DNA from: Tortispora ganteri
Taxonomy: Eukaryota
DNA: 64,000 nt
Reading direction: 5' to 3'
NCBI GenBank assembly: GCA_003707115.1
Contig: PPNB01000005.1
Location: 248,001-312,000 of the forward strand
Position numbers and translations under genes: made by a program. The notes under the pieces were generated by a model, which worked only from the letters and a program-made list of their open reading frames with translations, searched no databases and had not been told where the DNA came from. Every line of letters begins with the position of its first letter. Positions within the stretch are counted from its first letter, which is position 1. Below, in pieces: positions 31,716 to 63,986 of the stretch.

Positions 31716-32366
31716 TTAGAAACTACGCGTTTCGACAGGCGAAGTAGCTAATGAATTTGCCAACGAGTCGACTTGTGCCATGTCCAGCATGCCAGTCGAT
31801 GTCGTGGAGTCGCTGTTTTGTCTAATAAGTCTCTGAATGTAGTCGTCTTCGACCATCTGATTATCACTAAGATCGTCCTCACTAAAGAACTCATTGCGTG
31901 ATCGCAGTGTTCCGGTACCACTCGATTTTGTGGATGCTCTAGACCTGCCTGTGCGGCCAAATAGACGAAAAAAAGTGGTCTGCCAGCCGCCGGCAGAAGG
32001 ACGGTGTCGGTATATGGAGTCGCCGCGCAAAAGGGCAGTCTCCTCGTCGGCCTCTGGACCGTCAGAAAATTCATAGACAGACGGATCAGGATCAGCAGCA
32101 TAAAAATCAAAAATCGCCGTCGACTCATTGGCGCGTAACGGGCCAATTGGTTCGCCATTTACATCTATTTCTGCGGCATTGCGCCGTCGTAGTCTACTGG
32201 CGATCGATCGCCTGATCGCTCTTGCCCATCGCCGCAGGAAGTCCCATATCCTTATAAACGCCTCCTTAATAGATGACAGTATTGTCAGACCGCGTCCAGC
32301 TGCCGATTCGAGGTGCTCAGTGGCGACTTCGAGGGCGTCGTGGAGCCGTTCAGAGTTTGTCTGCAT
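31716..32366 (-). CDS. Hypothetical protein
   Basis: About 216-aa ORF with basic amphipathic stretch, EETALL dileucine-like motif, TLRSRNEFFSEDD; family not recognised. Confidence 0.6.
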   Translation of the reverse strand: MQTNSERLHDALEVATEHLESAAGRGLTILSSIKEAFIRIWDFLRRWARAIRRSIASRLRRRNAAEIDVNGEPIGPLRANESTAIFDFYAADPDPSVYEFSDGPEADEETALLRGDSIYRHRPSAGGWQTTFFRLFGRTGRSRASTKSSGTGTLRSRNEFFSEDDLSDNQMVEDDYIQRLIRQNSDSTTSTGMLDMAQVDSLANSLATSPVETRSF

Positions 32367-39322: not shown

Positions 39323-39534
39323 TAGGTAGATCAAAAGTAAAATGAGAAAAAAAGCTGGCCGGATATTTGGATCTTTTTGGTATTTTTTTTTTCTTATAGT
39401 GCAATGAATGTTGGGTTAAATGTTGAGGGTTAGGGTACTGATATTTCGACTTTGCAGTGGCCAAGGCAGGCGGAAGGACCTGTTAGGACTTGGAGACCGG
39501 CAGATACACAGCCAGCGCGATAAACAAGAGGCAG

Positions 39535-40311
39535 ATGACGGACACACCATCAAGAAGCACTAGCTATGTGCAACTGAATCGTGGAGCGCTTTTTTCGGTG
39601 TTTGGATCGCAAGTGGGGCTGTCTGACATGGACGTGCCTACGCCTGTACGACGATCATCAGATGAAGGTACGAAGCCTAGGAACGTTGTAGTGAAGGCAA
39701 AGATGAGTTTTAACGAGAGTATTAAAGACATTATGGACAAGAAGTATGTTTTATTACGGATGTGTTCACTATGCATGACTGGAGTACTGACTGCGTATGT
39801 GCTAAATCACTTTCAAGACAATAACGTATTCTCAGGACTCGACCTGGAGTTTAGTGTAGGCAGCGCAAGAGGCGTTATAGCATGGTGTGTTGTCGGTCTA
39901 TCTATTGGACTTCTATATGCTATTGTTGACCGATTAGTGCCGCGCGGAACTGTGCCTGAACGAGATGTGGCGACGCCCGTAGAAGGGCTGCTAAGCACGG
40001 CGCGCCTAACGTGTGCGCTTCTAGGTGTAGCATTTGGCATCAGACGGCTGAACTGGACAAGCATTAAACAGGAGGCATTGACATTTGTATTGGGTAATCC
40101 TGCTATATGGTATGCGATAGATGGATCGATGAATGGATTTTTCATTTCAGCTATAATTTCGGTGACAATGGGTGCGCTGTACTATGTTTTCTACAGCGGT
40201 CTTCTGCCGTTTGAATGCTGGGACAGGTTTGCAATGATTACGTCAATATCTAGTCTTACGTTCTGCGTGTGCATATGCCTGGGCTCTTTTGGTCGGCGGG
40301 TGTTTTCCTAG
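39535..40311 (+). CDS. INSIG-family sterol-sensing-domain regulator (Nsg1/2-like)
   Basis: SYVQLN..ALFSVFG, LGVAFGIRRLNW.S..Q, NPAIWYAIDGS..GF, ICLGSFGR; about 6 TMs. Confidence 0.85.
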   Translation: MTDTPSRSTSYVQLNRGALFSVFGSQVGLSDMDVPTPVRRSSDEGTKPRNVVVKAKMSFNESIKDIMDKKYVLLRMCSLCMTGVLTAYVLNHFQDNNVFSGLDLEFSVGSARGVIAWCVVGLSIGLLYAIVDRLVPRGTVPERDVATPVEGLLSTARLTCALLGVAFGIRRLNWTSIKQEALTFVLGNPAIWYAIDGSMNGFFISAIISVTMGALYYVFYSGLLPFECWDRFAMITSISSLTFCVCICLGSFGRRVFS

Positions 40312-40327
40312 TGACATATACATGTAT

Positions 40328-40687
40328 CTAATCTTCTTTATCAGCGGATTTGGACTTAGTGGCCGAACTGAGGAGGTTCGAAACACCATGATAATTGACG
40401 TACCTTACGCCCTGAACCAGTTGTGAGCATTCATTGACAAAGTGACATGCAAATAAAAGATAATTCTTAGGCGTGACGGCGAGAGAGTATCGCATGAATA
40501 CCAACGAGTAGATAATAAGCGAGCCCGTCATTGGGCCGGAGATTAGTTTGGCGTCTTTCTGTGTATCCATGATCGCGGCCAGAGGAATACCGAAGTTGGA
40601 GACCGGGCCCCAGAAGTGTGTCGAGCACACATATCGCAAAAAGTCCTTGGAGAATAGGAACTTCGTGAATTTATTGCCTGAAGACAT
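40328..40687 (-). CDS. MPC1: Mitochondrial pyruvate carrier 1
   Basis: CSTHFWGPVSNFGIPLAA, ISGPMT, FMRYSLAVTPKNYLLFACH. Confidence 0.97.
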   Translation of the reverse strand: MSSGNKFTKFLFSKDFLRYVCSTHFWGPVSNFGIPLAAIMDTQKDAKLISGPMTGSLIIYSLVFMRYSLAVTPKNYLLFACHFVNECSQLVQGVRYVNYHGVSNLLSSATKSKSADKED

Positions 40688-40877
40688 TGGTTTATTGTGC
40701 GGTAAGAGCAAGCGCGTGGGGTAAAAATTTCTGAGCGGCTGGGCAACGTCCGGTTACTGGTTGTAAAGTACAGTTTTGTTGAAATGGATAAGATATATTA
40801 GGGTTCAGGGGATGACCTAACAAACTCAAATCGGCCATATACTACTCTCTAATTGGTTTGCTATACATGCATGCGAG

Positions 40878-42518
40878 CTATCTATTGAGGAGGAGACTGC
40901 GGAAAAAGTGCACGGTACCGTGGTATTTAAGCGCAAATGCAAGCGATACGAGAATGACAACTGTGTGGTAGACGGTCTTGGGCACTACATAGCGGAACAA
41001 GCGATAGATCGCATGAAGACGCCAGAACTTGTGTTCGCCCTTGAGATCGTAGTCTTGGTAATGCGGCCACAGCAGATGCATCCAATAGTCGCTAGCTAGT
41101 CCTGGGTATGATGCGGTATTACGTCCGAATTCGTTCAGGTACCAGTTTGAGCATCCCGCTGACCATACTGTCCCTTTCAATTTCAACTGCACGTCGAGCG
41201 CGTCTGCATCTTCAGCAGCCTGTTTAACGTCTACGATATTCGCGCGTCCACTGGCAACGGCCTCGACGATTGTCTTGCATGCGTATTCGACTTGCACTTC
41301 GGCTGTATAGATGACTGAATTGTGCGCAGGGAACGAGTTTGGCCCGAAAATGATAGCAAAGTTAGGGAACCCATGTACAGTAGTACCGCCATATGCGTGT
41401 GCGCCGCGTGTCTCTTTCCAATGATCTGCTAGCTCCTTGCCTCCGACGCCGTAAAATCTGATTGGTACCAGAAATTCCTGTACCTTGAATCCAGTAGCCA
41501 TCACGACAACGTCGAAATCTTCCTGGCGGCCACTTGGAGTGACGAGCGTTGACCCGTCAATATGATCCACAGCTTCCCATACTAGGTCTACATTTGGTCT
41601 GTGCAAGGCCTTTAAGTAACCTGGGTCAAATACGCGGCGTTTGCAGCCAAGCGGGAAATCAGGTATCAGTACGTCGTGGTACTTTTTTGGGGCTGTGGCG
41701 CGGATATACGCTTTGGCGTTCTCTTCGGCCTGTTCTCTGATCCGCTCGGAGTAGTCGCTGTCAAGGTACGAATAGTACAAGTTATCAGCGCTGTTGAATA
41801 TCTTGTAGCGCAAATACCGCATGGCAAATGGCACATTGCGGAAGACCCACTTTTGAAACGCAGAATACGGATGGTTTGGACGCTCATGATACCACTGGCC
41901 GGATCTGGCGAAGTGAGTAACGTGTGCTGCTTTTTCTGCGATTCTTGGTACAGTTTGCGAACCAGAACAGCCGTTTCCTACCACTGCTACCCTCTTGCCG
42001 GTGAGATCTGCTCTATCGTCCCATCTTGCAGTGTGGAACAGTGGCCCGGGGAAGGTTTGGTGACCTGGAGTGACAATATCTTTCGGTGTAGCGATTGCAC
42101 CGACGCAGGAAAACAATATTTGCGAGGACCTTGTGAATCGTACACCTGTATTGAGGTCAATGAGATTAACATCCCATTGATTAGTTGTTTCATTCCAGCT
42201 GGCGCTCTCAACCTCGATTTTTGTGTGAATGTACTTTCGAAGGCCAAACTTATCGACCGTGTCATTAATATACTGCAGGATTTCGTCGCGCTCGCACAGC
42301 TCTTTGGACCAGTTTGGATTTAAGTTGAACGAGAAGGAGTACAGGTGCGACATGACATCGCAGCCGCAGCCGGGGTATTTGTTCAGACTCCAGGTGCCGC
42401 CGACATCGGCCTTTTCGAATATGGTGAAGTTCGATACGCCATGTCGATGAAGCAGATTATAACCAGCAGCGATACCGCTTGGTCCAGCACCAATAATAAT
42501 AACTGATGGGCCTGACAT
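40878..42518 (-). CDS. Type I Baeyer-Villiger (flavin-binding) monooxygenase with C-terminal hydrophobic segment
   Basis: GAGPSG and GNGCSG Rossmann motifs; BVMO fingerprints GGTWSLNKYPGCGCD and FPGPLFHTARWD; GCKRR; ATGF. Confidence 0.93.
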   Translation of the reverse strand: MSGPSVIIIGAGPSGIAAGYNLLHRHGVSNFTIFEKADVGGTWSLNKYPGCGCDVMSHLYSFSFNLNPNWSKELCERDEILQYINDTVDKFGLRKYIHTKIEVESASWNETTNQWDVNLIDLNTGVRFTRSSQILFSCVGAIATPKDIVTPGHQTFPGPLFHTARWDDRADLTGKRVAVVGNGCSGSQTVPRIAEKAAHVTHFARSGQWYHERPNHPYSAFQKWVFRNVPFAMRYLRYKIFNSADNLYYSYLDSDYSERIREQAEENAKAYIRATAPKKYHDVLIPDFPLGCKRRVFDPGYLKALHRPNVDLVWEAVDHIDGSTLVTPSGRQEDFDVVVMATGFKVQEFLVPIRFYGVGGKELADHWKETRGAHAYGGTTVHGFPNFAIIFGPNSFPAHNSVIYTAEVQVEYACKTIVEAVASGRANIVDVKQAAEDADALDVQLKLKGTVWSAGCSNWYLNEFGRNTASYPGLASDYWMHLLWPHYQDYDLKGEHKFWRLHAIYRLFRYVVPKTVYHTVVILVSLAFALKYHGTVHFFRSLLLNR

Positions 42519-42553
42519 ATTTAGATTGTGTCTAGTTTTCTTAGTCGGACGCT

Positions 42554-42571
42554 TATATATATATATATATA
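42554..42571. repeat. (TA)n microsatellite / TATA region of the BVMO gene
   Basis: tatatatatatatatata about 35-50 nt upstream of the BVMO ATG. Confidence 0.7.
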
Positions 42572-42578
42572 ATCTCTC

Positions 42579-42743
42579 CGGGTACCATCACCCGAGATCG
42601 ATCGCTCCCATTTCGGCGGAAGACATCCGATATCCACAACACTACTGTAGCAATTCCAGTGTAGTTTTGCCAGACTACAATATTATTAATATAATATACT
42701 GTATATTATTTTTACAATTGTAATTAGCGGCTATTGTGTGCCG
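42579..42743. promoter_or_regulatory. Three CGG-N10-CCG Zn2Cys6-type sites upstream of the BVMO gene
   Basis: 42579-42594 CGGgtaccatcacCCG; 42614-42629 CGGcggaagacatCCG; 42728-42743 CGGctattgtgtgCCG. Confidence 0.7.
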
Positions 42744-43216
42744 TTCGGCGCATGCCGATGTGTGGGGAAGACAGAGCTATTTTGGGAATTACCCCGGATT
42801 TTCTCTAAACATGTATGAATATATGGGATATCAAATAATTGCAGTAAGTAATCAGTTATATGATTTTCAAAATTACATTTCTGTAATATTAAGTGTTAAC
42901 TGTCGAACTGTTATTTGTGAAATCAGTATAATTTACTCTCTAGGGCCAGTACATGTCTTAATATAATCAAAGCGGTCGATGAAAAAGAGCAGTCCTTTAT
43001 CTGATACCGACAATTGAATATAAGACATTCATAATTTTAAAATACAACCCAAATAAATATAATCCAATAACTATGAAATGATTTATATTAAATAATAGGC
43101 GAGCTAACTACGAATACGTTGCAGCACTATAGATCGACACAAAAGTCTAATCTCAAAATAGAGTTTAATACCTCGCTGGATATTTCTTGCAGTATATAAA
43201 TAACAATTACTTTTTT

Positions 43217-44263
43217 TCATATTTTAAAAATGACCTTTTGCACTTTACGCTCATCAAATAATTTGTATCCTTCTTTGGCATCCTCGAGTGGCATGATGTG
43301 GTCAGTAAGGAAAAGGAGATCGTTGGCTTTTTCATTGAGAAGTTTTAGAGCTTCAGGGAAAAGGTGACGTACAGGACATCTACCAAACTGAATAGTAAGA
43401 TTTTTGCAGTAAGTATCCCATGCTGTAAATGGAAATGGATCAGAGTTAACTCCAATTGATGAGATTTTTCCCCAAGGACGAAGTACATCGAATGCGAGTT
43501 TTACAGCATCGGCAACTCCGACGATCTCCATAACATTATCAGCACCTCTGCCATTAGTGACAGATTTGATGGTTTCAATAATGTATTCACGGCCTTTCTT
43601 GAGATCAAGTGGAATCGCACCAAGACGTTGAGCTTGTTTAAGACGGTCGTCAACGGTATCGACAGCATATATGGTGTCGGCCATAGTCTTTGCAGCAACA
43701 ATAGTGCAAAGACCTACAGGCCCACATCCAACAACGACATTGACAGAAGATTTACGCTCCTCATCAGATAAACCTTTGAGAACATTTGAAGCAGCAAAGT
43801 AACCGGTAGGGAAGATATCGGCCATAAGTACCATGGCCTCGGCTGGAGCGTTCGTATTCGGCATAGGGAACAAGGTACCGTCAGCCCATGGTACACGCAC
43901 ATATTCTGCCTGTGCACCATCTAGTGGTTTAGTACCAAAGAGCAGACTGTGTTCGCAACGAGAAGTGGCGCCGTGTTTACAATAAAAGCATTGCATGCAA
44001 CTACAGGTAAACGGAGAGACGATACGGTCACCAGGTTTGAATGATGTCACTTTCGAACCGATTTCTTCGACAGTACCAATAAATTCATGACCCATTATGA
44101 ACCCTGTATCAGATTTCTGATGACCTCTGTAGACGTGAAGTTCAGATCCGCAAAGTGCGGTCAAGTCTACTTTAACAATAGCATCAGTATCATTTTGTAG
44201 AGTTGGTTTAGGTCTATCTACGACTTCGACGTCGTATGGTCCATTGAATACCACAGCTTTCAT
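43217..44263 (-). CDS. Zn-dependent alcohol dehydrogenase (MDR, FDH-like subfamily)
   Basis: CGSELH, GHEFIG, structural Zn CMQCFYC......RC, ADIFPTG, GCGPVG; Asp in AVD suggests NAD preference. Confidence 0.93.
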   Translation of the reverse strand: MKAVVFNGPYDVEVVDRPKPTLQNDTDAIVKVDLTALCGSELHVYRGHQKSDTGFIMGHEFIGTVEEIGSKVTSFKPGDRIVSPFTCSCMQCFYCKHGATSRCEHSLLFGTKPLDGAQAEYVRVPWADGTLFPMPNTNAPAEAMVLMADIFPTGYFAASNVLKGLSDEERKSSVNVVVGCGPVGLCTIVAAKTMADTIYAVDTVDDRLKQAQRLGAIPLDLKKGREYIIETIKSVTNGRGADNVMEIVGVADAVKLAFDVLRPWGKISSIGVNSDPFPFTAWDTYCKNLTIQFGRCPVRHLFPEALKLLNEKANDLLFLTDHIMPLEDAKEGYKLFDERKVQKVIFKI

Positions 44264-44366
44264 TGTTAATAAAATCCAAAAATTGTAATAAATATAAATG
44301 TATTTGTAATATTTATATACAATAGTAAAAGTAAATAAATGGTATTATAAATAATGTGGGGATATT

Positions 44367-44382
44367 CGGATATTAATATCCC
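44367..44382. promoter_or_regulatory. CGG-N10-CCC site containing the perfect palindrome GGATATTAATATCC, upstream of the ADH gene
   Basis: Read directly; one mismatch from the BVMO-promoter motif. Confidence 0.5.
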
Positions 44383-44510
44383 TAATTAGGGGAAATATCT
44401 GGGGAAACTGTGAATTTCCCAAATAAGATTGGCTTGAAGGTATTGTTGTATTTATATGAACTAAAAAAAGAGAAAATATATAAGATTAGATATTTCAATT
44501 ATTAGATATT

Positions 44511-45566
44511 TTAATTATTCGATATAGCATGTTTTGCAAGTTGTTCAATAATTATATTATCGGTTTTCTTTTCAACTGCACGTGATGAGACTACAATGCC
44601 ACCCATAGCATATGTATGCACTTGTGCAGGTTCTTCAATATAAATTATTTCGTGTTCAGGCAACTTGTCGCGGGCCGCTTTTGACGCAAAAATACGCGAA
44701 TCGTTTACAAGAATCTCGGTCGATCCAGCTAATATCAGAACATTACCAATACCGGCAAAATCGTTGTTATTAATCGGACTGATACGTGGATCTTTAGCTG
44801 AAATCTCACCATTTTCAGGTACAAACTGTTCTACCGCTGCAGGTCCAGTTTTTAAATGATCAAGCAGCCAGTCATTGTATACTTGCAGTTTGTCTGGATG
44901 CTCAAACCCAAGATCTAACCATGGCGAGATCAGTATGCTCAAACAAGGTAACGGTCGTTTCTTCTCGTCTTTGATCTTGAACAGTGCCATGCTGCACAAT
45001 CCACCACCTGCAGAATCACCAGCAAAAGCAATGCTCTTAGTACGCGGGCATTTCTCCAGTAGGTAATCGTATGCCGACATAAACGCATTAAGACATCCAG
45101 GGTACCGCTGCTCACTGGCAAGTGGGTACTCGAGACTGAATATAGCCAGATTCAGTCCATGACTATGCGCTACCTTGATCCAGCGCCAGAACGTGCTCTC
45201 GTACATTAATGCATCTCCAACAAAGAATCCACCTCCATGTGCAAACAAAATAGTAACGTCTGCGCTGTAGAATGTGGCATCGTTTGCGGGAAACTGGTAC
45301 CCGCGGAATCCCTTGCCGGCGACATACTTTGTACCACGACCTGCATCCCAGGCAGCTTTGTAGACGGTATCAGGGACACAGTAGAATGCCGATCCGTACA
45401 CTGCTCTACTGATCGCCGTGTACAAAGATGTAGTGTTTCTGCCAATAACACGTCTGTACGGTGTTAGGGCCAGCTCCTTAAAAGTTCTGATCAGAAATCG
45501 TAAAGTCGCGATCGGATTCTTCAGCAGGATCAATATAATCCTCAACCAGTTCAACAAGCGGTTCAT
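44511..45566 (-). CDS. Alpha/beta-hydrolase, HSL family esterase/lactonase
   Basis: HGGGF oxyanion motif, GDSAGG nucleophile, ISPWLD, GSTEILVND, catalytic His in VHTY; hydrophobic N-terminus. Confidence 0.92.
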   Translation of the reverse strand: MNRLLNWLRIILILLKNPIATLRFLIRTFKELALTPYRRVIGRNTTSLYTAISRAVYGSAFYCVPDTVYKAAWDAGRGTKYVAGKGFRGYQFPANDATFYSADVTILFAHGGGFFVGDALMYESTFWRWIKVAHSHGLNLAIFSLEYPLASEQRYPGCLNAFMSAYDYLLEKCPRTKSIAFAGDSAGGGLCSMALFKIKDEKKRPLPCLSILISPWLDLGFEHPDKLQVYNDWLLDHLKTGPAAVEQFVPENGEISAKDPRISPINNNDFAGIGNVLILAGSTEILVNDSRIFASKAARDKLPEHEIIYIEEPAQVHTYAMGGIVVSSRAVEKKTDNIIIEQLAKHAISNN

Positions 45567-45898
45567 TGTTTTTTTTTTATTGATCTTATTATTATAATAT
45601 CTGATCCCTGTAACCGCTATTTATATAATTATTAGAACCTAACCGGCTTAATTGAGTTTTGGCGTTACCATCGCCATCATCGTTTGACATCTCATCAACG
45701 GACAACCCTACGTGCACAATGCAGGTACTGGCGGCAAATTATAGCAATTGAACAACTGCAAAATATTTTTCTAAGATCTTAAGCAACCTTAAGAAAATAT
45801 TTTATATAAATCTACTATTATAAACGATCTCATGAGCATTTTTTATCGAACAATTCGCCCTCGCGCATAGTGTTTTATGGTTATTGCGACCCGAACTA

Positions 45899-45911
45899 CC
45901 CCGCATTTTTT
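45899..45911 (-). promoter_or_regulatory. Mig1/CreA-type GC box with AT flank (AAAAAATGCGGGG)
   Basis: Reverse complement of CCCCGCATTTTTT in the esterase/TF divergent promoter. Confidence 0.55.
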
Positions 45912-46024
45912 GAAACTCTATTTCAAAATAAAGTTTCAAAAATACATACACCTTTAGAGCGGTAAGGGTGAGAAAGAACAAGAAAAAGAAGAACAAAAAG
46001 AAAAAGGTACTAAACAAATTTGCA

Positions 46025-48190
46025 ATGGCCACACAAAGGACCAAACCACGAAGATCAAGTGCAAGCACACGACGCGACATTCAAGAACGAAAACGCATAT
46101 CGTTGGCTTGCGTTTCCTGCCGATCAAAGAAAGTGCGATGTGACGGCAGAACGCCAACTTGTCTTAACTGCGAGAAAGCTCATGAACAATGCACGTACCA
46201 ACCACACAATGACAAACGCAAACCGTACCCGAAGGAGTATATTTCTGCACTATGTGCTCGGATCTCGGCGTTGGAGGCGCTGCTGCAGGAGGCCGGTATT
46301 GCTGCACCGCCGCCTAACCTGTCTATTCCGGACTACACAGCTGATTTGACCTGGATGACGGTTAAAGAGAATTCTAGTAGTTTGTCAGGCGATCTAACGC
46401 AAGTATTGGCTGAACGTATTGGAGAGCTTAATATTGCAGACGATGGTCATCTTCGTTACTTCGGTGCGACTTCAATCTATCACCTTGACGGTGTTGGTAT
46501 AAATCAACAGTCTTTCGAAGATCTTGACATGCTCGGTACTAAAGCGCTTTTAGCTGCTGGTTTAAATGAACCGCTTGACCTTGATCAACGTGACCATCTT
46601 CTCCAGCTCTATTGGACCTGGCACAATTGCTTCTTCTACCATATCAATCAGCACGTATTCATGAAACATATGCATCTCTATCAACAAGGCAATATTAACA
46701 ATGCTTGGGCGTTTTCACCTCTACTACTCTACTCGATTCTTGCTCTTGCTGCGCTATTTGATGATAATTCAGACCCGATTTATTTCCTCAAACGCGCTCG
46801 AGTTTTGTTGGATGTTGAGCTCAATTGTCCCCGCATGGCCACAGTTCAGGCCGCCGCCGTTATTGGTACTACTGAAACAGCGCTAGGAAGCGATCCTCGC
46901 GGTTGGGTTCACTCTGGAATGGCTTTTAGGCTTGTTACAGACTTAGGATATCATATGAACGCCATCAAATGGCTCAAATCTGGTATCCTATCTGAAGAAG
47001 AAGCATTTTGCAGACAGACAACATTCTGGGGCCTTTATATCCAGGACGGCCTCTGGGCGTGCTATTTGGGTCGTCCAGGCTCGTTGAACATGCGTGATAT
47101 CAGTCAGCAAATGCCAGACCCATATGCAATACCAGATACTGTCTGGAAACCATATACAGGAATTAACGACCCATTGCCAGAGGAATGGGAATCGATCGAA
47201 ATGAAAGATCAGCTTGGAATTCTTACTTACTACTCAATCCTACTTGCACAGCATACACATGATGTCGTTGAGATTATTTACCCAGGACGCGAACAACCTT
47301 TATCAGAACTCATCAACTTTGCATCCGCTACCAGGGTCAAATTGGCAGAATGGTATACCGAGCTACCTGCATCATTGCTCTGTTCCACTACTTCTACCCG
47401 TCCCATACTGCCGCACGTCATACTACTACATCTTCAGTACTGGGTCACCACAATATTACTCAACCGACCCTTCCTTAATCAAAAACAGTACGAAACCGTT
47501 CGTGAAGACTCAGAACGGCTCTGCAGGAATGCTGCCGTTAACATATCCAGTCTAATGGCAAAATACTATCGTCTTTATACTTTGAGACGTATAAACATAG
47601 CAGTTGTTCATATGACCTTTACAGCCGCGACAATACATCTCCTGACAGTATGTACAGCCAAACAATCTAATCTGAAAGCTGAGGCCAGGTCCGGTTTACT
47701 CATATGTTGTGCTGCTCTCTCATTGCTTTCGAAGACGTATTCTAATGCACGAATATCGCTCGTCCTACTTACAAGACTCATGACACGCTGGATTGGCGAA
47801 GTTCCTTACTATATGCGTCAGGAGGCTGCCTCGTATTCTAATGGCACCGAAAACGCTACTCCGCCAAAACTACTCGATACTTTCCTCGATCCTGGAAAAG
47901 CAGAGTTTACGTCCGCACAAGCTCTACCTAAAGAGAACATTTACAATCTAGACCAGCGTCTTGATACTGGAATTGATCAGTCAAAGCTTTTATCTGTAAC
48001 TAGTACAGACCAGAAAGATTCTGAACGTCAAGATGCTTCACATGTTGATGAGAACTTACTCTCTGCTTTATTTGATTCGTTTCCGTACCCAGATTCACCA
48101 CAGAACTTTACAGAACATCAGTTAGAAGAAAATGCATGGGCAGATTTCTTTACTGAACATGACTCTATGGTTCTCCAAGAACTATTCTAA
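46025..48190 (+). CDS. Zn(II)2Cys6 transcription factor with fungal-specific TF domain
   Basis: ACVSCRSKKVRCDGRTPTCLNCEKAHEQCTY, DKRK linker, coiled coil, RYFGATS, SGMAFRLVTDLGYH, TFWG...YLGRP; acidic C-terminus; first ATG 46025. Confidence 0.95.
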   Translation: MATQRTKPRRSSASTRRDIQERKRISLACVSCRSKKVRCDGRTPTCLNCEKAHEQCTYQPHNDKRKPYPKEYISALCARISALEALLQEAGIAAPPPNLSIPDYTADLTWMTVKENSSSLSGDLTQVLAERIGELNIADDGHLRYFGATSIYHLDGVGINQQSFEDLDMLGTKALLAAGLNEPLDLDQRDHLLQLYWTWHNCFFYHINQHVFMKHMHLYQQGNINNAWAFSPLLLYSILALAALFDDNSDPIYFLKRARVLLDVELNCPRMATVQAAAVIGTTETALGSDPRGWVHSGMAFRLVTDLGYHMNAIKWLKSGILSEEEAFCRQTTFWGLYIQDGLWACYLGRPGSLNMRDISQQMPDPYAIPDTVWKPYTGINDPLPEEWESIEMKDQLGILTYYSILLAQHTHDVVEIIYPGREQPLSELINFASATRVKLAEWYTELPASLLCSTTSTRPILPHVILLHLQYWVTTILLNRPFLNQKQYETVREDSERLCRNAAVNISSLMAKYYRLYTLRRINIAVVHMTFTAATIHLLTVCTAKQSNLKAEARSGLLICCAALSLLSKTYSNARISLVLLTRLMTRWIGEVPYYMRQEAASYSNGTENATPPKLLDTFLDPGKAEFTSAQALPKENIYNLDQRLDTGIDQSKLLSVTSTDQKDSERQDASHVDENLLSALFDSFPYPDSPQNFTEHQLEENAWADFFTEHDSMVLQELF

Positions 48191-48458
48191 GAAATTTGAA
48201 ATGATCCCTACTACATAGCATTGTTACGAGCTCCACTATCTAAAAAAGGTACAGCCAGTATTAGCAGATACAGAAACTGCCCTTATATTTATAAAACAAA
48301 ACATTGAAGATTGATTGACGAGTATAGTTTAATGAAATATTGTAATTGATAACTTAGAAATGACTAAATTCATATTTAATAATTTTATACCTATTTGTAC
48401 GTTAAACCTATAGGAAACCTCACGGAATCTTAATCATAAAAGTTCAATTGCCTTACCA

Positions 48459-49511
48459 CTAATCCGCGATCTTGATAATTGCCTTATAACCACTAGGAAC
48501 CTTACCAGTTTTGACGGCATCCAGAACACTATTTACAGCGTTCAATCCACCATCATACACCTTGACAGCCTGTTCAATGTATTTTCCAGCAAACACAGTC
48601 TTCTCAAAAGCTTCCCAGTAATCAGAAGTAGGTTTGACCATCTCTGGCTCCTCATTTTTACCAAAATGGTGACAGTGATGACCAGCCAATGAGGTGTAAG
48701 CAAGCACAAACAGAAGTTCAACGTCCTTTCGCGGTTGTGAAGATGGGGGCAACAATAAAGCAAGCTTTCCACCTTTAGAGCCAAAAGCTTCCACTGCGAT
48801 AGGGATACTCTTGTCTTCAGATATAGTGTCGATTCCTAGATCAAGCGAATCATTGGTAATCTTGCGGATTTGTTCTGCCACGTCTGAATCATGATAATCC
48901 AAAACAGCAGTAGCACCAAGTTGCTTTATGCGGTCAAAACTATGTGGAGAGGCAGTTGCAATTACTTTGTAGCCAGCTAAAGCTGCTGCCTGAATTGCAG
49001 CTTGACCGACGCTAGTTGCACCAGACCAGACCAGGAACCATTTGCCCTCTGCATTAGGGTCTTTTTGCCCAAACAAAGGTAAACCAAGACGAATATAAAG
49101 AGCTTGACTGATTGTAGTAATCTTAACTCCCCAAGTAGCAGCTTCTTCAAATGATACTTTTTCTGGAATGTGAGAGAAGGTGCGATCGGTGAGTAATGCG
49201 TATTCAGCATAGGCGCCGTTCTCTGGAGCATCTACATAACATCCATGGACCATTCCAGATACGCGATCGCCTGGTTTTGTAGAAGTAACCTTTGATCCAG
49301 TTTTAACGACAATTCCTGCAGCATCGCATCCACACACAGTACCGGTAGTGATATCATTAAAGAATTCGATATGTTTCCAATCGGTGGGATTGGCGGCGGC
49401 AGCGTGAACTTTGATTAAGATCTCATTTTCAGCAGGTTCAGGAATTGGACCTTCTTTGATTTCAACATCTTTTGATTTGGTAACATAAGCGGCTTTTCTG
49501 GTAGAACTCAT
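48459..49511 (-). CDS. Zn-independent MDR oxidoreductase, enoyl-reductase-like (LovC/ToxD/YNL134C type)
   Basis: NPTDWK, GCDAAG.V, GAYAEY, WSGATSVG, VIATASPHSF..IKQLGA..VLDY. Confidence 0.9.
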   Translation of the reverse strand: MSSTRKAAYVTKSKDVEIKEGPIPEPAENEILIKVHAAAANPTDWKHIEFFNDITTGTVCGCDAAGIVVKTGSKVTSTKPGDRVSGMVHGCYVDAPENGAYAEYALLTDRTFSHIPEKVSFEEAATWGVKITTISQALYIRLGLPLFGQKDPNAEGKWFLVWSGATSVGQAAIQAAALAGYKVIATASPHSFDRIKQLGATAVLDYHDSDVAEQIRKITNDSLDLGIDTISEDKSIPIAVEAFGSKGGKLALLLPPSSQPRKDVELLFVLAYTSLAGHHCHHFGKNEEPEMVKPTSDYWEAFEKTVFAGKYIEQAVKVYDGGLNAVNSVLDAVKTGKVPSGYKAIIKIAD

Positions 49512-50004
49512 TTTTGATTGTAGAAATCAAAAGAAGAATTGAAATATCAACTCTTTATATAATTAAGTAGAGTATAAACTCTAAACAAGATAAGGTTATA
49601 ATGGCATTCAAATACTTACTTAATATATTGTCTATAAACCAACAAATGATTCTAGATATCTAATAAATTTTAATTGCTATTAATGAAAATCATACAATTA
49701 ATATAATTGCAGAGTATTATTCAATGAAAATGACAGTGTATTGTTGTAAATGACATAGCTAGAAGAATCTTGGTGAAGATCTTAGAATTACATAATCATA
49801 ATTATGACGATGAATATAATTCGGAAGCCTAAGTTCTTTACAGTAGATATTGATCAAAAATGAATCTATAAATAAGATCTAAATCAATAAATTACGATAC
49901 AATAATGTGGAAAGAAGAAAGGTACTATAAGACTGTTGTGCCTGTAGTATCATGGACTAATTGAGTATAAGGAGACAAGTCAATAAAACTACTTACTAAG
50001 AAAG

Positions 50005-50461
50005 TCATTGTTTAGTATCAGCAGATGTGTTAATCAATTCAATTTCCTTTCGTGCTTCTTCAATTTCCTTAGACGCGTCTATCAATGTTTCTTTCATTTC
50101 ACTGTGCGCTTGCCGAAGTTCTCCTTTTACCCTTTGGATCGCCTCATCGAAGTCTTTTGTCTCTGCATTGAGTTCATCCTCGAGTTCCTGCGGCAGAGAC
50201 TTCAATTGGATAGTATTTAAGTTAATAGATTGGTCTGTATTCGCGATCTTTTCAATGTCCGTAAAGGCTTTAGAATTAAGGAAATCATTCAGTTTCGCGT
50301 CTAAGTCGTTCAACATATCCTCGAGATGCTGAAGTTAGCGGTTAATAACAGGATAAAAGTAATTTTACTTAATTTGACTTAAATTTACTTACTTCTGCAG
50401 TTAGATTGGCAGAATCTATCATTTTCAATGCCTCTTTGATGTTTAAATTTGTATCGTCCAT
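50005..50461 (-). CDS. Small coiled-coil hypothetical protein; spliced (exons 50461-50393, 50328-50005)
   Basis: MDDTNLNIKEALKMIDSANLTAE|HLEDMLNDLDAKL reads in frame across the intron. Confidence 0.7.
50329..50392 (-). other. Predicted 64-nt intron containing a 3 x 10-bp AAGTAAATTT-like repeat
   Basis: GTAAGT donor, GCTAAC branch, TTCAG acceptor, phase 0. Confidence 0.82.
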
Positions 50462-50598
50462 GATGTATCGAAGGTTAAGTATAGATGTGTATTACTTCTT
50501 TGGTAGGTATAGTGTAATACTCATTATGATAATATTGTGATTCGTATAATTTTATATATTAGATAAGAGAGAGAAAAAAAATAGTCTTACAAGTAACG

Positions 50599-51468
50599 TT
50601 AGACGCTCGTTTTCACATATGCTTCAACATCCTTATACACGTCGAAACGACGTTGTATGGTTACAGGAATACCTTCACGCGCAGATTTAATGACCTCTGG
50701 GTCAAGTTCTGCATATACAATACTCTCTGTCTCATCAGCCTCACTTATAATTTTTCCAAGTGGGTCACATACTAATGAGTGACCGTATGCATGGTATCCT
50801 GCACTCATGTCTCTTGCTGGTGCGCACATTAGCGTATAGACTTCATTGTCGACAGACCGCGCTTGTGCCAGCAGACTCCAATGCATAGGACCAGTGGTTA
50901 AATTAAATGCTCCTGGATAGACTAATGCAAAAGCATTGTGTTTACGTGCAGCAGCCATAGCAAGTTCTGGGAACCGCACATCGTAGCAGATACCAATACC
51001 AATATTACCAAATCCGTCAAGATGTGCAACAGTGCCATGGTCCCCGCCAGCAAGTACTGATGATTCTTTAAATGTCATTTTTCCAGGAATATCAATGTCA
51101 AACAGGTGTACTTTTCGATGCACAGCTAACAACTCGCCTTTAGGACTGAATGTCATATTGGTGTTATACAGAGTACCATCGGCAGCGCGCTCAGGGATGG
51201 ATCCACCTACAAGGAACACTTTGGACTCTCCAGCGATCTTTTTAAGGAATTCACCCGTAACACCACCAGGAACAGTTTCGGCATATTCTGGGAAAGCAGT
51301 GACTGCATAAGGGCTGTTAAAACATTCAGGCAAAACGACTATTTTGGCTCCTTCCGCGGCCGCTTTCAGAATATGCGTCTCGGCTTTCTTGAGGTTCGCA
51401 GCTTTGTCTGCACCTGCTGCAAACTGTATGAGCGCCACTTTAACTTTTTGTAATAATGGCGAAGGCAT
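50599..51468 (-). CDS. NIT3: Nitrilase-superfamily omega-amidase
   Basis: LPECFNSPY, HRKVHLFDIDIPG..TFKES, GICYDVRFPEL, YPGAFNLTTGP.HW. Confidence 0.95.
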   Translation of the reverse strand: MPSPLLQKVKVALIQFAAGADKAANLKKAETHILKAAAEGAKIVVLPECFNSPYAVTAFPEYAETVPGGVTGEFLKKIAGESKVFLVGGSIPERAADGTLYNTNMTFSPKGELLAVHRKVHLFDIDIPGKMTFKESSVLAGGDHGTVAHLDGFGNIGIGICYDVRFPELAMAAARKHNAFALVYPGAFNLTTGPMHWSLLAQARSVDNEVYTLMCAPARDMSAGYHAYGHSLVCDPLGKIISEADETESIVYAELDPEVIKSAREGIPVTIQRRFDVYKDVEAYVKTSV

Positions 51469-51652
51469 TCTTTTTATATCAGCGTCGAATCAGTTTAACC
51501 GATCTTATCCTTTACTTCTTTGTTGGTGTCGATGGTGTCATTCATGTCCTCCCCCACACTTTCCCTTGTTACCCCCCCACACCTGACAGCCGCACAAATT
51601 GCACATTTTTACTAATACATAAATATAATCTTCCCTGTCTATTCTCCTAGAC

Positions 51653-63500: not shown

Positions 63501-63986
63501 CGATTCGAGTGGCGACGAGACGACAATCTTGCTGTTAGTGTCAATGTTCAGTACATATGAAAGCTTATATTTCTCGATGCTGGCAATCATTGCGGCTCGG
63601 CCCTTGGGGTCGACGGCAAGGTACTCTCCGGGCACCGATCTGCGGATGCCAGACTTGCCATAAGGCTCACAGACAGTCGGTTGAAACTGATTCATTTTGG
63701 AGTTGTAAATAAGTACAGTAAACATACCAGAGTCAGAAGTGACAATTAGCGCGTCTTTAGATGTACCCGGGACACGTACTGCGCGAACCATTCTAATACT
63801 GCAAAACAGGTTTTGATTTAGTACGGGTTGCAGAGCGCCAGATTCAAAATCAGGCCTGTACATGCGTAGCCAGGACCCACACGCCATGACTATATCCTGA
63901 CGCTTTTCACCAAAAAAAATACCGACCACAGACATGTTCGCAGCCTGAGGCGGTAGAAGCGTAAGCGAGTACAGGAAGACAGACAT
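60516..63986 (-). CDS. RSE1: U2 snRNP SF3b subunit Rse1 (SF3B3)
   Basis: LYSLTL start, GKSGIRR.VPGEYLAVDPKGRA, YYELDL, GGDKFGN, YRGYYVPVKHVIDGDFCEQY. Confidence 0.97.
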   Translation of the reverse strand: MSVFLYSLTLLPPQAANMSVVGIFFGEKRQDIVMACGSWLRMYRPDFESGALQPVLNQNLFCSIRMVRAVRVPGTSKDALIVTSDSGMFTVLIYNSKMNQFQPTVCEPYGKSGIRRSVPGEYLAVDPKGRAAMIASIEKYKLSYVLNIDTNSKIVVSSPLESHTARRLVFALEALDVGYDNPLFAALEVDYAECDFNTSPTTYSKTEKLLVYYELDLSSNVVVKRLSVPVPRDSAFLLPIPGGKDGPSGVLIGYTDYIMYHNLSARPVQIPIPRSNATGTQPLHLTCGVVHKLKNGFFVLVQSSTGDLFKITFEVEDSIVINIKLKYFATLPIAVCLNILKSGTLFLTADSGNHKYYRFEKLGDDDNDNAFSVVSSEWHPGSPPPQFTPEDPQNLELLYEIPALHYVTSAYVDEPTLKSSMKIHLASGRGAESAIASIHNGLEVMEIVRTPLPGRPINLWTTKLSSTDEFDKYIVISFSDATLILEVGETVEEIKDSGLILHASTILVQQMGLVGLVQVHEGGFRHIRGTNSHIDEWKPQHNVYVTRAVANSRQLVLALSNRDIKYFEIDSNGLLIEYTESKKFGSGITALSLSATAKSSLLCVACDDSTLRIVSLKPEDMFDTLTMQGLSAPASSLHIGPLGKPADSYANLFLHVGLSSGVYLRTVMDQFTGEMTSTVSKVVGSSSVKLVPLIVAGEHTIMVLSSRSWLAHVSENRFEVNPLDYDTLDQAFQFSGEPCPDSQVGVCGEDLCIFSIENLTQKIQFEKVALHGSPRKIVRDMQLPVQYVSEADKHHGQWSSRVESVDLNSKEISEAVLLENGERVLTIEPVQFLARPGKHYLVVSVAKDIDTLSTLSTRFSDCFICVYEISDNNGLQLVHRTRVEQPATAICTFNGRILAGIGRALRIYDIGKKQLLKKCELELRGYQQIVRIDHEGGDRIAVADSVQSICFLSYKHGINQFLAFSDDCIARHCTTMKMFDYDTAVGGDKFGNLWVLRPDQQASELVDKDEFGSLVKKESKLQGASSKNECICHFYVQDIPMAVHRVKLQFAAREMLVWAGLQGTIGTLIPLLSKKDYEFFLQLQKHIAAETTSCVGRNLLTYRGYYVPVKHVIDGDFCEQYLLLPQQKQQTIAEKLDRSVNDIFKRLIEMRLHNAF

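What the first reader, a model, noticed from the sequence alone, without database searches (positions are those of the whole stretch)
40878..49511. Candidate yeast metabolic gene cluster: BVMO + alcohol dehydrogenase + esterase + Zn2Cys6 regulator + enoyl reductase
Seen: five contiguous, intronless, non-housekeeping genes sit between MPC1 and the small coiled-coil/NIT3 genes. All four enzymes are on the minus strand and the TF is head-to-head with the esterase. Known: secondary-alcohol dehydrogenase -> type I BVMO -> esterase/lactonase is the logic of bacterial cycloalkanol and methyl-ketone catabolism (e.g. the Acinetobacter chn cyclohexanol genes). Enoyl-reductase-like MDRs can reduce enones or carbonyls. 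Inference: a self-regulated pathway in which an enone or secondary alcohol is converted to a ketone, oxygenated to an ester/lactone and hydrolysed, for catabolism or detoxification of a lipophilic compound. The BVMO's hydrophobic C-terminus (VVILVSLAFAL) and the esterase's hydrophobic N-terminus suggest membrane association. I do not recognise this as one of the characterised yeast clusters (GAL, DAL, NIT, MAL, PUL, sophorolipid, hydroxyaromatic). The substrate is unknown.
Basis: partly seen in the sequence, partly recalled or inferred. Interest (0 to 1): 0.88.

Follow-up and report, generated by a model that had tools for sequence, protein, structure and literature searches.

The report
Candidate yeast ketone-cleaving gene cluster
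A budding yeast close to Tortispora carries five adjacent genes (an oxygen-inserting enzyme, an alcohol dehydrogenase, an esterase, a regulator and a reductase) that could together break down a ketone, but nothing yet shows that they work together.

Summary
All five ORFs lie at the stated coordinates and strands. They encode:
- a zinc alcohol dehydrogenase (ADH) of the MDR family;
- an HSL/Say1-type serine esterase;
- a Zn2Cys6 regulator;
- a zinc-free, LovC/enone-reductase-like MDR.

The five form an island of accessory genes among housekeeping genes.

The pathway reading is only partly supported. For it:
- BVMO, ADH and esterase keep the same order in Tortispora caseinolytica (consecutive accessions).
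- The BVMO promoter carries three CGG-N10-CCG zinc-cluster-type sites, the only such group in the 64 kb.
- BVMO-dehydrogenase and esterase-BVMO fusions exist elsewhere.

Against it:
- The ADH is a widely conserved fungal gene. Its homologue shares a contig with the BVMO homologue in 0 of 11 other species.
- BVMO and esterase homologues are unlinked in 2 of 2 black yeasts checked.
- The other promoters have no exact site.
- No RNA data exist.

I see no sign of recent transfer from bacteria or filamentous fungi.

This is a plausible new member of the known BVMO-esterase-dehydrogenase kind. Its function is untested.

The parts
40878..42518 (-). [quoted passage not shown]
   Evidence: Regex finds GAGPSG(10), GGTWSLNKYPGCGCD(40), FPGPLFHTARWD(156) and GNGCSG(181). 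These motif residues are invariant in 46 aligned homologues. AF2 model pLDDT 86.5 with helices 499-531 and 533-545. Foldseek top matches are steroid monooxygenase (STMO), cyclohexanone monooxygenase (CHMO) and phenylacetone monooxygenase (PAMO), TM 0.75-0.78. 94% identical to T. caseinolytica ODV89695.
42519..43216 (-). BVMO upstream region, 698 bp, GC 0.33
   Evidence: Holds 15 CGG/CCG triplets and a (TA)n TATA-like run at 42554-42570.
42579..42594 (.). CGG-N10-CCG site 1 (-61 to -76 of the BVMO ATG)
42614..42629 (.). CGG-N10-CCG site 2 (-96 to -111)
42728..42743 (.). CGG-N10-CCG site 3 (-210 to -225)
   Evidence: Three sites within 165 bp. 0 of 5000 dinucleotide shuffles of the 698 bp give three N10 inverted sites. 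5 of 5000 give three of any of 48 pattern/spacer types.
43217..44263 (-). Zinc-dependent MDR alcohol dehydrogenase, YbdR/TADH-like, 348 aa
   Evidence: CGSELH(38), GHE(58), a structural-zinc Cys4 motif at 89 and GCGPVG(179). Best PDB match is 4cpd, the Thermus ADH, at 2.4e-63. 96% identical to T. caseinolytica ODV89696. 57-68% identical to many fungi.
44367..44382 (.). Near-palindrome CGGATATTAATATCCC in the ADH promoter (-104 to -119), one mismatch from CGG-N10-CCG
   Evidence: Weak: 131 of 5000 shuffles of the 247-bp region give such a site, and relaxed sites are common in other intergenic DNA (17 in 9216 bp).
44511..45566 (-). HSL-family / Say1_Mug180-type serine esterase, 351 aa, with an extra N-terminal helical segment
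   Evidence: HGGG(110) and GDSAG(183). H110, S185 and E284 are invariant and H317 nearly invariant among 10 relatives. AF2 pLDDT 88.5. Foldseek top matches are HSL-family esterases. 85% identical to T. caseinolytica ODV89697; the next relatives are at most 38% identical.
45567..46024 (.). Divergent esterase/TF intergenic region, 458 bp
   Evidence: No exact CGG-N10-CCG. Two one-mismatch sites, not significant (413 of 5000 shuffles).
46025..48190 (+). Zn2Cys6 transcription factor, 721 aa
   Evidence: Zn_clus 28-64 and Fungal_trans 193-424. Cys6 pattern at residue 29, followed by a heptad-like stretch YISALCARISALEALLQEAG. The Atlas gives only generic Zn2Cys6 clusters.
48459..49511 (-). Zinc-free MDR, LovC/enone-oxidoreductase-like, 350 aa
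   Evidence: No GHE and no structural-zinc motif. PDB matches: LovC enoyl reductase 4e-38 and the strawberry 'ripening-induced protein' 4ida at 2.6e-26.
49512..50004 (-). Upstream region of the MDR gene, 493 bp, GC 0.25
   Evidence: One CGG/CCG triplet and no CGG-N10-CCG even with one mismatch.

Best explanation
The five ORFs are real genes. They form an island of accessory genes among housekeeping genes in a budding yeast close to Tortispora caseinolytica.

The most likely working unit is the co-directional trio esterase - ADH - BVMO, acting in three steps:
1. An NAD-type zinc alcohol dehydrogenase oxidises a secondary alcohol to a ketone (family shown, reaction inferred).
2. An NADPH/FAD type I Baeyer-Villiger monooxygenase with a C-terminal hydrophobic helix inserts oxygen beside the carbonyl, giving an ester or lactone (family and motifs shown, reaction inferred).
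3. An HSL/Say1-type serine esterase hydrolyses that product (family shown, substrate inferred).

The BVMO gene is probably switched on by a zinc-cluster dimer that binds three CGG-N10-CCG sites just upstream of its TATA-like run. The neighbouring Zn2Cys6 gene is the obvious candidate for that regulator (inferred).

The LovC/enone-reductase-like MDR could deliver saturated ketones from enones, but its membership is the weakest.

The substrate is unknown. A lipophilic methyl or cyclic ketone (terpenoid, steroid-like or aliphatic) fits best.

The confidence given is for 'at least BVMO and esterase act in one pathway'.
For: 1. Families and catalytic motifs are intact in all four enzymes.
2. Island character: none of the other 29 ORFs of 150 aa or more scanned is of these families.
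3. T. caseinolytica keeps the order BVMO, ADH, esterase, shown by consecutive accessions ODV89695/96/97 on one 2.61-Mb contig.
4. Both end enzymes are rare in the databases for budding yeasts. Among the 120 best BVMO hits the only named Saccharomycotina row is T. caseinolytica. The esterase has only 6 relatives at E<=1e-30 among 1.84 billion representatives.
5. Three exact CGG-N10-CCG sites lie at -61 to -225 of the BVMO ATG. This is the only group of three over spacers 0-15 in the 64 kb. 0 of 5000 shuffles give three N10 sites, and 5 of 5000 give three of any pattern. Inverted CGG repeats are the classic zinc-cluster homodimer site (PMC10954478, introduction passage).
6. Fusion proteins link the enzyme classes. 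Aaosphaeria P0050 is a BVMO of this clade (52% identity) with a C-terminal SDR. Metagenome ORF L061:9551-12229 is Abhydrolase_3 + BVMO.
7. The same three-enzyme logic is proven in a fungus by VidF/VidP/VidH (PMC5943271, passages). It is described for Rhodococcus erythropolis DCL14: carveol dehydrogenase, carvone reductase, BVMO and MlhB lactone hydrolase (PMC7794910, passages).
Against: 1. Linkage is not conserved where it could be looked at. In 11 of 11 species that appear in both the BVMO and ADH top-120 lists, the two homologues sit on contigs of different length. Seven of these are single-member clusters, where the figure is unambiguous.
2. BVMO and esterase homologues carry distant locus tags on different contigs in Fonsecaea pedrosoi and Cladophialophora immunda, 2 of 2. 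Only one BVMO paralogue per species was seen.
3. T. caseinolytica is so close that shared order is expected anyway.
4. The ADH is 57-68% identical across Pezizomycotina, Saitoella and Blastobotrys. It therefore probably has a role of its own.
5. No exact CGG-N10-CCG occurs in the ADH, esterase/TF or MDR promoters. One-mismatch sites are common elsewhere. Shared 8-mers are marginal: 3 against a background mean of 0.47, reached by 4% of 2000 random sets, and 7-mers are not significant.
6. Only 2 of 80 metagenome loci with HSL-type esterases have a BVMO nearby.
7. No RNA data, so co-expression is untested.
8. From recall, not from a call: the Yarrowia BVMOs that have been characterised were reported to prefer sulfoxidation, so ketone oxidation is not guaranteed.
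Confidence: 0.45

Rival explanations
1. Accessory-gene island without a shared pathway. The five genes are leftovers of the ancestral fungal gene stock that early-branching yeasts keep. They happen to sit together in a tolerant spot between housekeeping genes, and each works alone: the BVMO as a general xenobiotic or S-oxidising flavoenzyme, the esterase as a Say1-like membrane deacetylase, and the ADH and MDR as general carbonyl reductases.
For: - No linkage outside the genus in the cases seen: 0 of 11 and 0 of 2.
- The ADH is widely conserved.
- The esterase family is eukaryote-wide. Its next relatives are in Chaetothyriales, Calcarisporiella, Podila and an amoebozoan.
- The BVMO sits outside a 38-row Pezizomycotina clade on its own long branch, as vertical descent with loss would give.
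- Basal yeast families are known to keep filamentous-fungus-type P450s (PMC6723986, passages).
- There is no common promoter element.
Against: - The product class of the BVMO is exactly the substrate class of the esterase.
- Both are rare in yeasts, yet they lie two genes apart.
- Five accessory genes in a row among core genes.
- Fusions elsewhere tie the enzyme classes together.
Confidence: 0.35
2. The full five-gene, self-regulated pathway. This is a wider sub-case of the best explanation. The enone reductase and the ADH both feed ketones to the BVMO, the esterase opens the product, and the cluster's own Zn2Cys6 factor controls all four enzyme genes.
For: - All four activity classes of the DCL14 carveol route are present: dehydrogenase, enone (carvone) reductase, BVMO and lactone hydrolase (families).
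- The TF is divergent from the esterase.
- The BVMO promoter has zinc-cluster-type sites.
Against: - The MDR and esterase promoters have no exact site.
- The MDR gene lies beyond the TF, convergent with it.
- Nothing ties the TF to the sites.
- There is no expression or synteny support for the MDR or the TF.
Confidence: 0.2
3. A sterol/steroid-type acetate route. This is a substrate-specific sub-case. The BVMO turns a C-20-keto or other methyl-ketone side chain into an acetate ester, the Say1-like esterase removes the acetate, and a dehydrogenase oxidises the freed hydroxyl, as in VidF/VidP/VidH.
For: - The esterase passes the Pfam Say1_Mug180 threshold (58 bits against 21).
- The best fold match of the BVMO model includes steroid monooxygenase.
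- VidF is 541 aa and VidP 354 aa, similar in size. The authors state that such trios are widespread in fungal genomes (PMC5943271, discussion passage).
- Both proteins look membrane-associated.
Against: - VidH is an SDR, whereas the dehydrogenase here is a zinc MDR.
- CHMO and PAMO match the BVMO model as well as STMO does.
- The Abhydrolase_3 score exceeds the Say1 score.
Confidence: 0.1
4. A recently transferred bacterial (or filamentous-fungal) catabolic operon fragment.
For: - The word-index search of the esterase listed mostly bacterial or metagenomic proteins labelled epsilon-lactone hydrolase.
- The best solved relatives of the ADH are bacterial.
Against: - In the exhaustive HMMER search, 7 of the 9 best non-Tortispora esterase clusters that could be named are eukaryotic and 1 is bacterial.
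- GC3 values of the five genes (0.33-0.54) lie within the range of their neighbours (0.35-0.58).
- The BVMO is not nested in any sampled donor clade.
- Two signature peptides of the BVMO clade have no confirmed match in 185,579 prokaryote genomes.
- The ADH follows a fungal distribution.
Confidence: 0.02

Closest known systems
VidF / VidP / VidH pregnane side-chain cleavage trio of Nodulisporium sp. (PMC5943271; abstract and passages read)
   Same: It is a fungal example. A type I BVMO (541 aa), an esterase (354 aa) and a dehydrogenase are encoded together and act in sequence: ketone to acetate ester, to alcohol, to ketone. The authors say such trios are widespread in fungal genomes.
   Different: It is embedded in a 19-gene biosynthetic cluster. 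Its dehydrogenase is an SDR, not a zinc MDR, and acts after the esterase rather than before the BVMO. Orthology of the window's BVMO and esterase to VidF and VidP was not tested. The paper's Supplementary Fig. 10 was not seen.
Carveol/dihydrocarveol route of Rhodococcus erythropolis DCL14: carveol dehydrogenase LimC, carvone reductase, BVMO, monoterpene epsilon-lactone hydrolase MlhB (PMC7794910, passages)
   Same: All four activity classes have a counterpart in the window: alcohol dehydrogenase, enone reductase, BVMO and lactone/ester hydrolase.
   Different: It is bacterial. Its dehydrogenase and reductase belong to other families. The window's esterase is only 33-35% identical over 55-65% of its length to proteins automatically labelled lactone hydrolase. 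No NCBIfam model reaches its cut-off.
Cyclohexanol (chn) genes of Acinetobacter and methyl-ketone genes of Pseudomonas (mekA/mekB; ADH-BVMO-esterase of P. fluorescens). Names recalled; the general scheme is in PMC7794910
   Same: The logic is secondary alcohol to ketone to ester or lactone to hydrolysis, with a linked regulator.
   Different: These are operons with bacterial regulators. Here there are separate eukaryotic promoters and a Zn2Cys6 factor. The BVMO belongs to a fungal clade with a C-terminal hydrophobic helix, only 24-28% identical to the solved bacterial enzymes.
Say1 steryl acetyl hydrolase of S. cerevisiae (Pfam PF10340; its biology is recalled)
   Same: The esterase passes the PF10340 threshold and has an N-terminal helical, partly hydrophobic extension.
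   Different: The generic Abhydrolase_3 model scores higher. No yeast Say1 appeared among the named nearest relatives. Sterol deacetylation is untested.
Grosmannia clavigera BVMOs CMQ_7007 and CMQ_6956 in limonene use (review PMC8120277, passages; the primary paper PMC4148792 is not held)
   Same: Fungal BVMOs with a catabolic or detoxifying role towards a plant terpenoid.
   Different: It is a filamentous fungus, and the review lists the enzymes as peroxisomal. The cluster make-up could not be read. None of the four enzymes here ends in a PTS1-like tripeptide (read).

Membership tests
Type I Baeyer-Villiger monooxygenase | Two Rossmann GxGxxG motifs flanking the fingerprint FxGxxxHxxxW[P/D], plus [A/G]GxWxxxx[F/Y]P[G/M]xxxD (motif definitions recalled) | tested here: met
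   GAGPSG(10), GGTWSLNKYPGCGCD(40), FPGPLFHTARWD(156) and GNGCSG(181). The FMO-type variant of the fingerprint is absent. The motif residues are invariant in 46 homologues.
Type I Baeyer-Villiger monooxygenase | Fold of the solved BVMOs | tested here: met
   AF2 pLDDT 86.5. Foldseek E about 1e-41 to 1e-37 and TM 0.75-0.78 to STMO, CHMO, PAMO and OTEMO over about 545 columns.
Type I Baeyer-Villiger monooxygenase | NADPH- and O2-dependent conversion of a ketone to an ester or lactone | not testable with these tools
   Needs an enzyme assay.
Hormone-sensitive-lipase (family IV) esterases | HGGG oxyanion motif, GDSAG nucleophile elbow, conserved acid and His, alpha/beta-hydrolase fold with N-terminal cap | tested here: met
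   HGGG(110) and GDSAG(183). E284 is invariant and H317 nearly invariant in 10 relatives. Foldseek top matches are all HSL-family esterases, E about 1e-17.
Epsilon-lactone hydrolase (MlhB/ChnC type) | Specific sequence kinship to characterised lactone hydrolases, and lactone hydrolysis | tested here: inconclusive
   Hits labelled '(monoterpene) epsilon-lactone hydrolase' by JGI are 28-36% identical over 54-74% of the query. The labels are automatic. No NCBIfam model reaches its cut-off; the best is GESAG_HSLs at 104 bits against 430. Activity is untested.
Say1_Mug180 steryl acetyl hydrolase (PF10340) | Pfam gathering score | tested here: met
   58.1 bits against a cut-off of 21. However, bacterial HSL esterases and lactone hydrolases also carry this Pfam hit, so it does not discriminate.
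Zinc-dependent MDR alcohol dehydrogenase | Catalytic zinc ligands (Cys..His, GHE), structural-zinc Cys4 loop, GxGxxG | tested here: met
   CGSELH(38), GHE(58), CMQCFYCKHGATSRC(89) and GCGPVG(179). PDB 4cpd at 2.4e-63. The Asp in 'YAVD' after the second strand suggests NAD (inference from MDR rules, recalled).
Zn2Cys6 fungal transcription factor | CX2CX6CX5-12CX2CX6-8C cluster plus the fungal-specific middle domain | tested here: met
   Pattern at residue 29. Zn_clus 39 bits and Fungal_trans 79 bits.
LovC / quinone-oxidoreductase-like zinc-free MDR (enoyl or enone reductase) | MDR fold without zinc ligands, and kinship to enoyl/enone reductases | tested here: met
   No GHE and no Cys4 loop. LovC 4e-38 and 4ida 2.6e-26. 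The substrate is untested.
Fungal metabolic gene cluster | Physical contiguity of functionally complementary genes | tested here: met
Fungal metabolic gene cluster | Linkage kept across lineages more distant than sister species | tested here: not met
   The order is kept in T. caseinolytica. BVMO/ADH share a contig in 0 of 11 other species, and BVMO/esterase in 0 of 2. The sampling is thin and paralogues were not resolved. No fungal genome collection was available.
Fungal metabolic gene cluster | Co-expression, or dependence on the cluster's TF | not testable with these tools
   No RNA run is listed. Candidate sites occur at the BVMO promoter only.
VidF/VidP/VidH-type trio | BVMO + esterase + SDR dehydrogenase encoded together | tested here: not met
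   BVMO and esterase are present, but the dehydrogenase is a zinc MDR, not an SDR. Orthology was not tested.

The most novel reading that the evidence does not exclude
This is a true catabolic or detoxifying gene cluster that was put together in the Tortispora lineage from old fungal genes. It would be the first Baeyer-Villiger-based ketone-cleavage cluster in budding yeasts. A pathway-specific Zn2Cys6 factor reading CGG-N10-CCG sites would control it, and four enzymes would act in series: enone reductase, NAD-ADH, a membrane-tethered BVMO and a Say1-like esterase. The substrate would be a lipophilic ketone or secondary alcohol of the yeast's plant-rot habitat. The habitat link is recalled and not tested.
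Probability: 0.2. Interest if true: 0.65.

Novelty: new member of a known kind. Interest (0 to 1): 0.4.

Why it matters
Budding yeasts have few known catabolic gene clusters and few Baeyer-Villiger monooxygenases. My full-text searches found no report of a BVMO-based cluster in them. 'Tortispora' + 'Baeyer-Villiger' gave 0 papers. 'Baeyer-Villiger' + 'Saccharomycotina' gave 4 papers, none of whose listed titles or abstract openings concerns such a cluster; I read passages of only one. The five-term search gave 14 papers, none on a yeast cluster.

If the genes work together, three things would follow. It would show how an early-branching yeast assembled a small ketone-cleaving pathway from ancestral fungal genes. 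It would give a first physiological role to a large, uncharacterised fungal BVMO clade with a C-terminal anchor. And it would offer a matched BVMO/esterase/ADH set for biocatalysis.

If they do not work together, the locus is simply an island of retained accessory genes.

Tried and rejected
- Whole-genome search of the window's own assembly: no genome is held. Paralogue counts and a genome-wide chance estimate were therefore impossible.
- Earlier notes of this scan: nothing for this genome or for look-alikes of the BVMO or esterase. The word search gave only two bacterial BVMO-esterase islands.
- Expression: no RNA holder is listed.
- Laid contigs: runs X3 and X5 (other organisms) matched only short low-complexity pieces.
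- Metagenome scan with the esterase alignment: the patterns used were the generic HGGG and GDSAGG blocks, so it returned ordinary HSL esterases at 26-36% identity. 2 of 80 loci have a BVMO beside the esterase (L061, L009), 1 of 80 has a weak ADH match, and 0 of 80 have a TF or MDR match.
- Prokaryote genome scan with the BVMO alignment: 42 pattern matches, none confirmed.
- NCBIfam: none of the 4 enzymes reaches any curated cut-off.
- Atlas search of the TF: only generic Zn2Cys6 clusters.
- Composition as a sign of transfer: GC3 is within the range of the neighbours.
- Shared promoter words: AATTGCTA, AAACTCTA and GAAATATC each occur in 3 of 4 promoters, but this is marginal.
- One-mismatch CGG-N10-CCG sites are not specific.
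- tRNA genes: none in the window.
- Papers not held: PMC4148792 and PMC1594591.
- (Yarrowia/EthA terms) gave nothing useful.

Full report
**Observation.**
- 40878-42518(-), 546 aa;
- 43217-44263(-), 348 aa;
- 44511-45566(-), 351 aa;
- 46025-48190(+), 721 aa;
- 48459-49511(-), 350 aa.

Pfam assigns them, in that order, to FMO-like/Pyr_redox_3, ADH_N+ADH_zinc_N, Abhydrolase_3 (+Say1_Mug180), Zn_clus+Fungal_trans, and ADH_N+ADH_zinc_N. The flanks are an MPC gene on one side, and a small family-less ORF plus a nitrilase-family gene on the other. The four enzymes are on the minus strand. The regulator is divergent from the esterase across 458 bp.

Contigs from two runs of the same organism cover 39500-51500 at over 99% identity, and one contig spans 40888-51500. 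The arrangement is therefore not an assembly artefact.

The rest of the window is almost wholly core machinery: PCNA, NPL4, Sec66, Sec10, fumarase, Sua5, eIF2A, eIF3j, adenylate kinase, SET1, APC4, importin-beta, RSE1 and others. None of the 29 further ORFs scanned belongs to the five families. A run of five accessory genes is thus a real local feature.

**What the genes are.**

*BVMO.* It has both Rossmann motifs, the type I fingerprint FPGPLFHTARWD and the GGxWxxxxYPGxxxD motif. These residues are invariant in 46 homologues. Its AlphaFold model (pLDDT 86.5) superposes on steroid, cyclohexanone and phenylacetone monooxygenases at TM 0.75-0.78, but with only 24-28% identity (sequence search). 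A hydrophobic stretch sits at the same place in all six homologues printed, from Tortispora, Microbotryomycetes, Xylaria and Marasmius. It therefore looks like a clade feature rather than something special to this gene.

*ADH.* It is a classical zinc MDR with catalytic and structural zinc motifs. Its closest solved relative is the Thermus ADH 4cpd at 2.4e-63.

*Esterase.* It has HGGG and GDSAG, and a conserved acid and His. Its confident model (pLDDT 88.5) matches hormone-sensitive-lipase-family esterases. It carries about 30 extra N-terminal residues that are predicted helical and only borderline hydrophobic.

*Regulator.* It has a canonical Cys6 cluster followed by a heptad-like stretch.

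*Fifth gene.* It is a zinc-free MDR. Its closest solved relatives are the LovC enoyl reductase (4e-38) and a plant enone oxidoreductase.

No NCBIfam equivalog cut-off is reached by any of the four enzymes.

**Whose genes they are.** The best database hits are from Tortispora caseinolytica NRRL Y-17796: 94% (BVMO), 96% (ADH) and 85% (esterase), all on a 2,610,682-base contig. Their GenBank accessions are consecutive (ODV89695, ODV89696, ODV89697), so the trio has the same order there. The window comes from a close relative of that species.

Beyond it the three genes behave differently.
- The ADH is 57-68% identical to proteins from many Pezizomycotina, Saitoella and Blastobotrys. It is an ordinary, widely kept fungal gene.
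- The BVMO drops at once to at most 55% identity, with Microbotryomycetes and many Pezizomycotina. No other named budding yeast is among the 120 listed hits.
- The esterase drops to at most 38%. An exhaustive HMMER search of 1.84 billion representatives found only 6 proteins at E<=1e-30. Seven of the nine best non-Tortispora clusters carry an organism or eukaryote label: three Chaetothyriales black yeasts, a lichen fungus, a Helotiales fungus, the protist Syssomonas and one bacterium. Further down the list come Calcarisporiella, Podila and an amoebozoan.

The bacterial 'epsilon-lactone hydrolase' labels that dominate the word-indexed search are thus a sampling effect. They show general family kinship only.

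**Origin.** I built a quick maximum-likelihood tree of 50 BVMOs plus one metagenome outgroup. The 50 were the query and 49 of the 120 listed hits, thinned by taxon; the other 71 were left out. In it the Tortispora pair sits on its own long branch, outside a well-supported clade of 38 rows (36 Pezizomycotina and 2 Marasmius), and is unresolved with the Microbotryomycetes. GC3 of the five genes (0.33-0.54) lies within the range of their neighbours. Two signature peptides of the BVMO clade have no confirmed match in 185,579 prokaryote genomes.

Old fungal genes kept by an early-branching yeast and lost in most others is the simplest reading. The same has been described for P450 families of these basal yeast families (PMC6723986, passages). 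Recent transfer is not supported.

**Do they work together? Evidence for.**
1. The chemistry fits. A BVMO makes exactly what an esterase cleaves, and an ADH makes what a BVMO needs.
2. The two rare genes lie two genes apart, inside an accessory island.
3. The BVMO promoter holds three exact CGG-N10-CCG inverted repeats at -61 to -225, just upstream of a (TA)n run. Over spacers 0-15 this is the only group of three within 200 bp in the 64 kb. None of 5000 dinucleotide shuffles of the 698-bp region gives three N10 sites. Five of 5000 give three of any of 48 repeat types, and 33 of 5000 do so when only the GC-richer 241-bp core is shuffled. Inverted CGG repeats are what zinc-cluster homodimers bind (PMC10954478, introduction).
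4. Fusions link the classes. An Aaosphaeria protein joins a BVMO of this clade (52% identity) to an SDR, although this may be a merged gene model. A metagenome ORF joins an Abhydrolase_3 domain to a BVMO.
5. The same three-enzyme logic is proven in a fungus (VidF/VidP/VidH; PMC5943271). With an enone reductase added, it is described for Rhodococcus DCL14 (PMC7794910).

**Do they work together? Evidence against.**
1. Linkage is not seen further afield. In 11 of 11 species present in both top-120 lists, the BVMO and ADH homologues are on contigs of different length. Seven of the 11 involve single-member clusters, where the figure is unambiguous.
2. In Fonsecaea pedrosoi and Cladophialophora immunda the esterase relative and the one BVMO relative seen have distant locus tags on different contigs.
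3. These are thin samples with unresolved paralogy, and no fungal genome collection was available.
4. Shared order with T. caseinolytica is expected at that distance whatever the function.
5. The ADH, esterase/TF and MDR promoters have no exact site. The ADH near-palindrome (one mismatch) is reached by 131 of 5000 shuffles, and relaxed sites are common in other intergenic DNA. Shared 8-mers are marginal.
6. Only 2 of 80 metagenome loci with HSL esterases have a BVMO nearby.
7. No RNA run exists for the organism.

**Verdict.** I put about 0.45 on 'at least BVMO and esterase act in one pathway, probably with the ADH between them and under a zinc-cluster regulator'. I put 0.2 on the full five-gene self-regulated pathway, which is a sub-case, and 0.35 on an island of unrelated accessory genes.

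The substrate cannot be named. A lipophilic methyl or cyclic ketone fits the apparent membrane association. The DCL14-type enone/terpenoid route and the VidFPH-type methyl-ketone/acetate route are the two concrete models.

The kind of system (BVMO + esterase + dehydrogenase) is known in bacteria and in one filamentous fungus. What is new is a candidate in a budding yeast, with an MDR-type ADH, an MDR-type reductase and a Zn2Cys6 gene. My literature searches found no report of it. The supplementary figure of PMC5943271 that maps VidFPH-like trios across fungi was not seen and could bear on this.

Noticed in passing
L061:9551-12229 (+), metagenome contig of 183,533 bases: One uninterrupted 893-aa ORF joins an Abhydrolase_3 esterase domain (residues 169-369) to a BVMO (from residue 408; 32% identical to the window's BVMO). 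It looks like a natural esterase-BVMO fusion.
   Followed up: partly
Protein P0050 (Aaosphaeria arxii, 798 aa): A BVMO of the same fungal clade (52% identity) carries a C-terminal short-chain dehydrogenase domain (551-791). It is either a true fusion or two merged neighbouring genes.
   Followed up: partly
window 40318-44540 versus 44541-51500: The contigs of two runs of the same organism differ from the window at 17 single bases and one 1-base deletion. All of these lie between 40318 and 44540 (MPC, BVMO, its promoter, ADH, start of the esterase). None lies in the following 7 kb. This could be a strain difference or a block of different ancestry.
   Followed up: no
window 39535-40311 (+): An INSIG-family (sterol-sensing partner) gene lies two genes from the BVMO, next to the MPC gene. 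This is probably a coincidence, but it is noted because one reading of the esterase is a sterol-acetate hydrolase.
   Followed up: no
window 42554-42570: A 17-base (TA)n run lies 36-52 bases upstream of the BVMO start codon, directly below the three CGG-N10-CCG sites. It is a likely TATA element.
   Followed up: no
window 6663-7511 (+), 21124-21621 (+), 31716-32366 (-), 50005-50316 (-): Four ORFs (282, 165, 216 and 103 aa) have no Pfam family at the thresholds used.
   Followed up: no
window 10058-10549 (+) and 16857-17330 (+): Two small GNAT acetyltransferase genes lie about 6 kb apart among housekeeping genes.
   Followed up: no
window 63152-63456: Three further CGG-N10-CCG matches lie within 305 bp, but inside the coding region of the RSE1/CPSF_A-like gene (60516-63986, -). 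I take them as coding-sequence chance.
   Followed up: partly
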